Source of the DNA: Escherichia coli
GTDB lineage: Bacteria > Pseudomonadota > Gammaproteobacteria > Enterobacterales > Enterobacteriaceae
Strand: one strand, 5' to 3'
Assembly (NCBI RefSeq): GCF_003334315.1
Contig: NZ_QOWR01000007.1
DNA length: 64,000 nt
A model generated the notes under the pieces. It searched no databases and had not been told where the DNA came from. It saw only the letters and a program-made list of their open reading frames with translations. The position numbers and the translations under genes are program-made. Below are positions 29,684 through 32,802 of this stretch, piece after piece (the stretch's first letter is position 1; each line of letters begins with the position of its first letter).

Positions 29684-30821
29684 TCAGGCGTCACGCGGTA
29701 ACCCTTTTTCAATCACCCGAACCAGACGCTGTTTTTTCGGCAATTGCACTTCGACTATGCACGCATTTCGTCTCTCTATTTGCTGCGCAATCGCCCACGC
29801 TATGTGCTCATCGAGAAGTGGGTGCTCACCTTTACGACTTTCCAGCGCTGTCAAAATCGTTTCATCCCAAGGGGCATTGCCTAATGCTACGGCGATATTA
29901 CGCAGCCAACGCAGGTGACCAATACGACGAATCGCCGATCCTTCCGTGACTTTTAAAAACTTCTCTTCGCTCCAGGCGAATAACTCAATGAGTTCCGGTG
30001 CGTGTAGCGGCTTACGCGGGCTGAAATCCTCTTCTGTGGTGAGTTGTGAATAGCGATTCCACGGGCAGATAAGCTGGCAGTCATCGCAACCGTAAATACG
30101 GTTTCCCATTAACGGTCGCAACTCTTCCGGGATCGCCCCTTCAAGTTCGATGGTGAGATAAGAGATACAGCGGCGAGCATCGACGGTATATGGCTCGACG
30201 ATGGCACCGGTCGGGCAAATCGTCATACAGGCCACGCATTTACCACATCCTTCCTCGACTGGTTGATCCACGGGCAGAGGAATATCGACCAGCAATTCGC
30301 CTAAAAAGAAGAACGAACCGGCCTCGCGATTGAGGATAAGTGAGTGCTTACCTGTCCAGCCGAGCCCAGCTTTTTCAGCTAACGGGCGCTCGAGAATAGG
30401 CGCAGAATCGACAAACGGTCTAAAATTCAGCGAAACACAATGTTGCTGAATCATCTCGCCCAGCTTTTTGAGTCGGTTGCGCAGAAGTTTGTGATAGTCA
30501 CGGCCCAGCGCATAACGGCTAACATAGCCGAGTTTGGGGTTTTTCAGCGTGCTGGCAAATGCGGCGTTAGCAGGAAGGTAATTCATCCGCACGCTGATCA
30601 CGCGCAGCGTACCGGGCAATAACTCATGGGGGCGAGCGCGCAGCATACCGTGACGCGCCATCCAGTCCATTTCGCCGTGGTATTGTTTGTCCAGCCATGC
30701 TTGCAGTTTGGGCTCGGACTCGCTGAGATCGGTATCGGTAATACCTACCTGCTGAAAGCCCAGTTCCAGCCCCCACTGTTTAATTTTTTGCGCTAACTGA
30801 TTGAGATCGAGGGGCTCTGAC

Positions 30822-30823
<2 letters not shown>
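29684..30823 (-). CDS. queG: Epoxyqueuosine reductase QueG (379 aa)
   Basis: ORF 29684-30931 trimmed to ATG 30823 ([25 protein letters not shown]...); ferredoxin-type Cys clusters (CGKCVACMTICP, CDDCQLICPWN). Confidence 0.93.

Positions 30824-32802
<1,979 letters not shown>

What the first reader, a model, noticed from the sequence alone, without database searches (positions are those of the whole stretch)
30821..30824. Divergent queG and nnr start codons overlap within a CATG palindrome
The queG ATG occupies 30823-30821 on the minus strand and the best nnr ATG occupies 30822-30824 on the plus strand, so the two initiation codons share the central AT of CATG. Each gene's promoter and ribosome-binding site must therefore lie inside the coding sequence of the other. 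That is an unusually tight divergent arrangement and implies transcriptional interference or co-regulation at the head of the nnr-tsaE-amiB-mutL-miaA-hfq-hflXKC gene string.
Basis: seen in the sequence. Interest (0 to 1): 0.3.

Follow-up and report, generated by a model that had tools for sequence, protein, structure and literature searches.

The report
Overlapping queG and nnr start codons
Two back-to-back E. coli genes really do share two bases of their start codons and have their promoters inside each other's coding sequence, but this is the standard annotation and a published overlapping-transcript ("excludon") locus, so it is real and rare but not new.

Summary
The window is E. coli. CATG sits at 30821-30824. 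RefSeq/PGAP and the curated K-12 record both annotate queG (-) and nnr (+) with this 2-bp overlap.

In 81 Enterobacteriaceae species, 76 keep an in-frame nnr ATG inside CATG. It has a strong, conserved Shine-Dalgarno (GAGGGG) built into queG codons 4-5. The downstream ATG (30837) is not a start codon in 23 of 81. The first ATG is therefore the best-supported nnr start, but I found no direct proteomic or initiation-profiling evidence.

Published K-12 data (Conway 2014, as tabulated in Huang 2020) put the nnr-operon transcript start at window 30434, 388 nt inside queG. They put the queG transcript start at 30847, inside nnr codon 9. The transcripts overlap by about 413 nt, and double-stranded RNA was recovered from that region (Lybecker 2014; Huang 2020). 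ExcludonFinder (2025) lists queG-nnr among 16 divergent E. coli excludons.

My conservation analysis independently recovered both -10 elements. Each is held in place by a rare codon (AGA in queG, ATA in nnr).

Divergent coding overlaps are rare in E. coli (2 pairs in one survey). The finding is already known, so interest is low.

The parts
30821..30824 (.). CATG holding both start codons. The queG ATG is the complement of 30823-30821; the nnr ATG is 30822-30824.
   Evidence: Sequence. Annotation in CP53 and K-12. CATG in 80/81 species. It lies in one of only four runs of >=9 nt with >=97% column identity in a 1,360-bp alignment (30819-30831).
29684..30823 (-). queG coding sequence (epoxyqueuosine reductase, 379 aa).
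   Evidence: ORF list and annotation. The N-terminus M-S-E/Q-P-L-D-L..L-A..I-K-Q-W-G is conserved, and distant relatives have a similar short N-terminus. There is no other canonical start codon between the transcript start and this ATG (sequence).
30822..32369 (+). nnr coding sequence (NAD(P)HX epimerase/dehydratase, 515 aa from the first ATG).
   Evidence: ORF list and annotation. The first ATG is in frame in 76/81 species. A relative with 44% identity starts MTDY without any overlap (L088).
30809..30814 (+). nnr Shine-Dalgarno GAGGGG, 7 nt upstream of ATG 30822. It is made by queG codons 4-5 (CCC CTC).
   Evidence: Anti-SD duplex energy is -7.2 kcal/mol, against -3.2 for ATG 30837 and none for TTG 30801. 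The 8-mer CGAGGGGC (30808-30815) is identical in 70/81 species and GAGGGG is intact in 76/81, which includes the synonymous sites of queG.
30837..30839 (+). Alternative in-frame nnr ATG (MKKNP).
   Evidence: Weak SD. Across 81 species this codon is ATG in 36, GTG in 16, TTG in 6, and a non-start codon (CTG/CTA/GAG/ATA/CTT) in 23. It is the only in-frame start in 4 Kosakonia species.
30421..30426 (+). -10 hexamer TAAAAT of the nnr-operon promoter, inside the queG motif NFRPF (codons AAT TTT AGA).
   Evidence: The 12-mer GGTCTAAAATTC is identical in 80/81 species and has the lowest synonymous-site entropy of 448 windows. It ends 8 nt before the published transcript start. It requires the rare Arg codon AGA plus TTT and AAT. 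Assigning it as the -10 is my inference. No good -35 was found, and the consensus scan found nothing.
30434..30821 (+). 388-nt 5' leader of the nnr-operon mRNA, antisense to queG codons 1-130.
   Evidence: Conway 2014 promoter at 4,391,701 in old K-12 coordinates, as tabulated in the Huang 2020 supplement. Converted with window = coordinate - 4,361,267, anchored on a listed small-RNA sequence. K-12 and the window have no indels here.
30855..30863 (-). Extended -10 (TGgTATACT on the minus strand) of the queG promoter, inside nnr codons 12-14 (AGT ATA CCA).
   Evidence: AGTATACCACA is identical in 78/81 species and uses the rare Ile codon ATA. The hexamer ends 8 nt before the published queG transcript start. 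A published dPqueG deletion removes 30853-30883.
30824..30847 (-). 24-nt queG 5' leader (UUUUUCUUCAUUGUAUGGUCCGUC), the complement of nnr codons 1-9. It has no real Shine-Dalgarno and is unstructured.
   Evidence: Transcript start at 4,392,114 in old K-12 coordinates. SD energy is only -2.2 kcal/mol. Predicted fold energy is 0 kcal/mol.
30434..30847 (.). About 413-nt region transcribed on both strands. The two promoters face each other across it.
   Evidence: Conway overlap 4391701-4392114, 413 nt, category 'Divergent'. Lybecker dsRNA MS-212 maps to window 30450-30833. The Huang p19 dsRNA cluster S-361 maps to window 30487-30842 and is listed among the paper's top 20 protein-coding-gene clusters in stationary phase.

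Best explanation
This is a compact head-to-head gene junction with no intergenic DNA.

queG and nnr each start at an ATG inside one CATG. Each gene's translation-initiation region is therefore written in the first codons of the other. The nnr Shine-Dalgarno GAGGGG is queG codons 4-5. The short, U-rich, SD-less queG leader is the complement of nnr codons 1-9.

With no spacer, both promoters sit inside the partner's reading frame and point at each other.
- The nnr-operon promoter (-10 TAAAAT, 30421-30426) fires at about 30434, 388 nt inside queG.
- The queG promoter (extended -10 TGgTATACT, 30863-30855) fires at about 30847, inside nnr.

The genes diverge, but the promoters converge across about 413 bp. 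Polymerases from the two sides must meet head-on. The two RNAs are complementary across both ribosome-binding sites, and they form double-stranded RNA that RNase III cuts.

Shown by published data or by the sequence: the overlap of the annotated start codons, both transcript starts, and the dsRNA.

Inferred: that nnr uses the first ATG, which sequences are the -10 elements, and that the overlap lowers the expression of one or both genes (excludon-type mutual interference).

Conservation of CATG itself needs no special mechanism. Three of its four bases belong to each start codon, so ordinary selection on two start codons fixes all four.
For: - Annotation: the same 2-bp overlap appears in the PGAP and curated K-12 records.
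- nnr start: the first ATG is in frame in 76/81 species, while the second ATG is a non-start codon in 23/81. SD energy is -7.2 against -3.2 kcal/mol. GAGGGG is conserved at queG synonymous sites. A 44%-identical relative begins MTD without any overlap.
- Transcript starts: 4391701 (+) and 4392114 (-) in old K-12 coordinates, equal to window 30434 and 30847, with a 413-nt overlap.
- dsRNA: the Lybecker MS-212 and Huang S-361 clusters cover the same region.
- queG-nnr is one of 16 divergent excludons in 58 MG1655 transcriptomes.
- A published dPqueG construct deletes 30853-30883.
- Independent sequence evidence: only four runs of >=9 invariant nucleotides exist in 1,360 aligned bp across 81 species. 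Three of them are the nnr -10, the CATG junction and the queG -10. They are held by the rare codons AGA and ATA.
- The near-zero spacer is old: spacings of -2, +1, +6, about +11 and about +22 nt occur in relatives with 44-74% Nnr identity.
Against: - I found no direct evidence for the Nnr N-terminus. Three supplements searched had no entry and one had no supplementary files held.
- Four Kosakonia species have a +1 insertion, so their nnr can only start at the second ATG. The first five residues are therefore dispensable.
- The simple sigma-70 consensus scan found no promoter in 30300-31400. Neither promoter has a recognisable -35.
- The published transcript starts come from RNA-seq read-depth mapping, and I read them second-hand from another paper's supplement. 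The Conway tables themselves were not available.
- In the Huang table, the two antisense transcript-start columns are empty for this cluster.
- No experiment shows that either gene's expression changes when the other's promoter is removed.
Confidence: 0.85

Rival explanations
1. In E. coli, nnr is translated only or mainly from the downstream ATG (30837, MKKNP). The reading frames would then not overlap. The ATG inside CATG would be a by-product of the queG start codon followed by a G.
For: - Four Kosakonia species can only use this position.
- ATG, GTG or TTG is present there in 58/81 species.
- Several gene callers (Logan/ENA entries of 510 aa) choose it.
- The conserved Nnr domain begins only around residue 17-20, judged by where distant homologues start to align.
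Against: - The position holds a non-start codon in 23/81 species, which then have no alternative to the first ATG.
- SD energy is only -3.2 kcal/mol, against -7.2 for the first ATG.
- GAGGGG, placed correctly for the first ATG, is conserved at queG synonymous sites.
- G30824 is not needed by queG, yet it is kept in 80/81 species.
- The MTD N-terminus is retained in a 44%-identical relative.
Confidence: 0.12
2. Both nnr ATGs are used, giving two proteoforms that differ by five residues.
For: Both are in-frame ATGs 15 nt apart. Closely spaced alternative starts are reported to be frequent in E. coli N-terminomics. The Kosakonia variant shows the short form is sufficient.
Against: The second site has a weak SD and is poorly conserved. 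There are no data for this gene.
Confidence: 0.2
3. The architecture is real but has no regulatory role. It would be a frozen product of genome compaction, and the dsRNA would be a harmless by-product of two weak promoters.
For: - Conservation of CATG follows from selection on two start codons alone.
- The exact spacing drifts in other lineages (-2 to about +22 nt).
- 35% of divergent E. coli operons have overlapping 5' ends, so overlap as such is common.
- No reciprocal expression data exist for this pair.
- Downstream genes of the operon have their own promoters (8 promoters in all).
Against: - The near-zero spacer has been kept from Enterobacteriaceae out to relatives with 44-50% identity.
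- This dsRNA cluster is listed among the paper's top 20 protein-coding-gene clusters in stationary phase.
- The overlap is detected in at least half of 58 transcriptomes.
Confidence: 0.4
4. nnr starts at the upstream in-frame TTG (30801), giving a 23-bp coding overlap.
For: It is the first start-type codon of the ORF and is open in frame in most species.
Against: There is no SD (best duplex +1.3 kcal/mol). A TGA stop immediately precedes it. No annotation uses it.
Confidence: 0.02

Closest known systems
E. coli K-12 reference annotation of queG (b4166, formerly yjeS) and nnr (b4167, formerly yjeF)
   Same: Identical feature: the same CATG and the same 2-bp overlap of the annotated start codons.
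   Different: None. The window differs from K-12 by 5 substitutions in 701 bp, and none is in the junction.
Divergent excludons, also called overlapping divergent operons (Sesto et al. 2013 concept; Conway 2014 category 5; ExcludonFinder 2025)
   Same: Neighbouring genes on opposite strands whose transcripts overlap at their 5' ends and form RNase III-cleaved dsRNA. queG-nnr is listed by name.
   Different: The intergenic distance here is -2 nt, against a mean of 95 nt for E. coli excludons. The transcript overlap is 413 nt, against an average of 168 nt for overlapping divergent operons. Mutually exclusive expression, the defining behaviour, has not been shown for this pair.
Face-to-face (convergent) promoter interference, for example coliphage 186 pR/pL (recalled from my own knowledge, not checked here)
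   Same: Two promoters fire towards each other, so elongating polymerases collide and pass over the opposing promoter.
   Different: The separation here is about 413 bp. Both products are housekeeping mRNAs, not a genetic switch. Relative promoter strengths are unknown.
Divergent overlapping gene pairs in bacteria (Huvet & Stumpf 2014)
   Same: Coding overlap at the 5' ends of genes on opposite strands, the rarest class (2 pairs in E. coli).
   Different: I could not confirm that queG-nnr is one of those two pairs, because the paper's list was not consulted.

Membership tests
Divergent overlapping gene pair (coding overlap at the 5' ends) | The two genes lie on opposite strands and are transcribed away from each other. 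| tested here: met
   ORFs and annotation.
Divergent overlapping gene pair (coding overlap at the 5' ends) | The start codons actually used place each coding sequence inside the other by at least 1 nt. | tested here: inconclusive
   The queG start is secure. The nnr first ATG is favoured by SD strength and by conservation in 76/81 species. No N-terminal or initiation-profiling data were found.
Divergent excludon / overlapping divergent operons | Each transcript start lies beyond the other's, so the 5' regions are complementary. | tested here: met
   Published transcript starts map to window 30434 (+) and 30847 (-), a 413-nt overlap. Both agree with the conserved -10 elements found independently.
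Divergent excludon / overlapping divergent operons | Double-stranded RNA or RNase III products arise from the overlap. | tested here: met
   Literature only: Lybecker dsRNA MS-212 and Huang p19 cluster S-361, with paired 21-22-nt reads listed across the junction.
Divergent excludon / overlapping divergent operons | Expression of one gene suppresses the other (mutually exclusive expression). | not testable with these tools
   No reciprocal expression data were found for this pair. The dPqueG strain exists but was assayed only for datA transcription and related datA/replication-initiation readouts.
Sigma-70 promoter (for each embedded promoter) | A -10 hexamer with A at position 2 and T at position 6, 5-9 nt upstream of the transcript start. 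| tested here: met
   TAAAAT ends 8 nt before 30434. TATACT, preceded by TGn, ends 8 nt before 30847.
Sigma-70 promoter (for each embedded promoter) | A recognisable -35 hexamer at 16-18 nt spacing. | tested here: not met
   The consensus scan found 0 sites. By eye, the best -35 candidates match 3 of 6 or fewer. The queG promoter has an extended -10 that can substitute. Which sigma factor serves the nnr promoter is unknown.

The most novel reading that the evidence does not exclude
The queG-nnr junction could be an ancient, selected antisense switch. The 388-nt nnr-operon leader would silence queG (queuosine maturation) by polymerase collision and RNase III cleavage. It would do so whenever the nnr-tsaE head of the tRNA-modification/hfq superoperon is induced, for example on entry to stationary phase, and queG transcription would act in the reverse direction. 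That would couple two tRNA-modification pathways. The fourth invariant block (30339-30352, unexplained) could be a regulator-binding site for it.
Probability: 0.12. Interest if true: 0.45.

Novelty: already known. Interest (0 to 1): 0.15.

Why it matters
It matters little as a discovery. The overlap is in the reference annotation, and the overlapping transcription is published and catalogued.

It is still a clean textbook case of how far two genes can be packed. Two start codons, two ribosome-binding regions and two promoters are all written inside protein-coding sequence, and rare codons (AGA, ATA) are fixed across the family because they spell -10 elements.

It has one practical use. Gene callers that penalise opposite-strand overlap shorten nnr or queG here, which is worth knowing when N-termini are compared across genomes.

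Tried and rejected
- The sigma-70/terminator consensus scan of 30300-31400 found nothing. The real promoters lack a -35.
- An Rfam scan of 30200-31000 at E<=1 gave no hit.
- Direct evidence for the Nnr N-terminus was not found. The TRAINSPOTTER supplements had no nnr/yjeF entry. Neither did Nakahigashi TetRP or the 2024 N-terminal proteoform paper. The Meydan Ribo-RET preprint has no supplement held.
The Cappable-seq GTF is truncated when stored, the PMC id I tried from memory for Thomason 2015 returned no paper, and the Conway 2014 supplement is not held. I therefore used the Conway and Lybecker coordinates as re-tabulated in the Huang 2020 supplement.
- The search for homologous proteins returned only relatives of >=79% identity, so it was useless for outgroups. 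I replaced it with the 50%-representative search plus contig look-ups. Two of those loci lacked queG next to nnr: L085 has a different gene context and L087 is from a reduced genome.
- I considered that the invariant block 30336-30358 might be an RNA hairpin. Fold z-scores of +1.05 and -0.97 rule out any significant structure.
- I considered TTG 30801 as the nnr start and rejected it for lack of an SD.

Full report
**1. What is in the sequence**

Bases 30821-30824 read CATG. The minus-strand ATG (30823-30821) opens a 379-aa QueG. The plus-strand ATG (30822-30824) opens a 515-aa Nnr.

The window is E. coli, 100% identical over 851 bp to strain CP53, and the region matches all 5,426 complete E. 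coli genomes. PGAP annotates CP53 with queG and nnr overlapping by 2 bp. The curated K-12 MG1655 record does the same: queG 4392928..4394067 (-), nnr 4394066..4395613 (+).

**2. Which starts are real**

*queG.* The N-terminus [18 protein letters not shown] is conserved in 81 Enterobacteriaceae species, and more distant relatives have a similarly short N-terminus. No other canonical start codon lies between the mapped transcript start and this ATG.

*nnr.* There are three in-frame candidates.
- TTG 30801 has no Shine-Dalgarno.
- ATG 30822 has GAGGGG 7 nt upstream (-7.2 kcal/mol against the anti-SD).
- ATG 30837 has only a weak GGA (-3.2 kcal/mol).

I compared 80 loci from one genome per species, together with the E. 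coli strain CP53 record that matches the window, 81 genomes in all.
- CATG is present in 80 of 81, and the ATG inside it is in frame with nnr in 76.
- The codon at the second-Met position is ATG in 36, GTG in 16 and TTG in 6. In 23 it is CTG, CTA, GAG, ATA or CTT, so Buttiauxella, Cedecea and others have no alternative to the first ATG.
- GAGGGG is conserved even though it occupies synonymous sites of queG codons 4-5.
- A relative with 44% identity begins MTDY with no overlap (L088).

The exceptions are informative.
- S. enterica subsp. arizonae has CATTATG, so the nnr start moved one codon.
- Four Kosakonia species carry a +1 insertion. It puts the CATG ATG out of frame, so only the second ATG can start nnr.

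The first five residues are therefore dispensable, and use of both starts in E. coli cannot be excluded. I found no proteomic or initiation-profiling entry for this gene.

**3. Where transcription starts**

The supplement of Huang et al. 2020 (PMC7373196) tabulates three data sets for its dsRNA cluster 361 (yjeF/yjeS):
- its own p19-captured dsRNA cluster, 4391754-4392109;
- the Lybecker 2014 dsRNA MS-212, 4391717-4392100, labelled 'Divergent';
- the Conway 2014 overlap, 4391701-4392114 (413 nt), with the plus-strand operon running from promoter 4391701 to terminator 4408049.

Other rows of the same table show what the two ends mean: they are the plus-strand and minus-strand transcript starts. 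In the cpxP row, for example, the end coordinate equals a listed minus-strand start.

A small RNA in the same supplement (CAUGACGGACC..., listed at 4392087) fixes the conversion: window = old K-12 coordinate - 4,361,267. K-12 and the window have no indels between 30300 and 31000.

The nnr-operon transcript therefore starts at about 30434, 388 nt inside queG. The queG transcript starts at about 30847, in nnr codon 9. dsRNA covers about 30450-30842.

Three further published points fit this picture.
- The cluster is listed among the paper's top 20 protein-coding-gene dsRNA clusters in stationary phase.
- Conway et al. call this the most complex operon in their data, with 14 genes and 8 promoters.
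- ExcludonFinder (PMC12288877) lists queG-nnr among 16 divergent excludons found in at least half of 58 MG1655 transcriptomes.
- A 2024 study built a dPqueG strain whose primer deletes window 30853-30883.

**4. Independent support from conservation**

I aligned 1,360 bp around the junction from 81 species. Synonymous sites are close to saturated: median entropy is 1.29 bits per four-codon window.

Only four runs of 9 or more invariant nucleotides exist: 30339-30352, 30417-30429, 30819-30831 and 30855-30865.
- The second run contains TAAAAT (30421-30426), which ends 8 nt before the published nnr-operon start. It is spelled by queG codons AAT-TTT-AGA. The rare Arg codon AGA is needed for the first T, and TTT and AAT are needed for the A-rich core. 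All three are fixed in 80-81 of 81 species.
- The fourth run reads TGgTATACT on the minus strand, an extended -10 ending 8 nt before the queG start. It is spelled by nnr codons AGT-ATA-CCA, including the rare Ile codon ATA.
- The third run is the CATG junction.

I derived the two -10 predictions before I found the published coordinates.

**5. How it most likely works**

The genes diverge, but their promoters face each other across about 413 bp. Polymerases must collide, and each passes over the opposing promoter. The two RNAs are complementary over both ribosome-binding regions.

The queG leader is 24 nt, U-rich, unstructured and lacks an SD. The nnr leader is 388 nt of antisense queG. Formation of dsRNA and its cleavage by RNase III are documented. 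A regulatory effect on either gene is inferred, not shown.

Conservation of CATG itself is explained by selection on two start codons.

**6. How old and how rare**

Relatives with 44-74% Nnr identity keep queG head-to-head with nnr-tsaE-amiB-mutL. After I corrected two gene-caller truncations by eye, their spacers are -2 (L086, L089), +1, +6, about +11 and about +22 nt. Lack of room for intergenic promoters is therefore ancestral, while the exact 2-bp overlap is not obligatory.

One survey counted only 2 divergent overlapping pairs in E. coli, against 586 co-oriented and 75 convergent. Transcript-level overlap of divergent operons, by contrast, is common at 35%.

**7. Verdict**

The feature is already annotated and published, so interest is low. 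What remains open is the Nnr N-terminus in vivo, whether the overlap regulates anything, and the unexplained invariant block at 30339-30352.

Noticed in passing
window 30336-30358 (core 30339-30352): This is the fourth run of invariant nucleotides across 81 species (ATAAGTGAGTGCTTACCTGTCCA). It lies inside the queG motif GWTGKHSLI and uses non-preferred codons (ACA, AAG, TCA, CTT). It sits 76-98 nt upstream of the nnr-operon transcript start. It has no promoter consensus, no Rfam hit and no significant fold. It remains unexplained and could be a protein-binding site.
   Followed up: partly
L054, L055, L062, L063 (Kosakonia spp.), junction about 15 nt after CATG: A 1-nt insertion puts the strongly SD-led ATG of CATG out of frame with nnr. 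That ATG now opens a short upstream ORF overlapping the real nnr start, which is the second ATG.
   Followed up: partly
L018 (S. enterica subsp. arizonae), L016 (subsp. diarizonae), L092: These are natural variants of the junction. CATTATG has adjacent start codons with no overlap. CATGATG has two consecutive nnr ATGs.
   Followed up: partly
L089 1080-1100; L090 and L091 junctions: Automatic gene calls truncate or over-extend queG to avoid an opposite-strand overlap. Read by eye, L089 has the same CATG overlap (queG MTTTLDLQKLAHDIKQWG). Likewise, many Logan/ENA Nnr entries are 510 aa (second Met), while PGAP gives 515 aa.
   Followed up: partly
window 32341-32369: tsaE starts 29 nt inside the 3' end of nnr, a co-directional overlap that is annotated in RefSeq.
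   Followed up: no
window about 29648-29701: The small annotated ORF yjeV (17 aa) overlaps the 3' end of queG on the opposite strand. ExcludonFinder lists yjeV-queG as a convergent excludon and yjeV-queG-nnr as a non-contiguous operon. Published work places the datA replication-control site in the intergenic region downstream of glyVXY, adjoining yjeV and the 3' end of queG.
   Followed up: no
window 30417-30428: The nnr-operon -10 is preceded by T and C at the two positions immediately upstream (TCTAAAAT) and has no -35. From my own knowledge this pattern is associated with sigma-S-dependent promoters, and the dsRNA cluster ranks highly in stationary phase. This is speculative and untested.
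   Followed up: no
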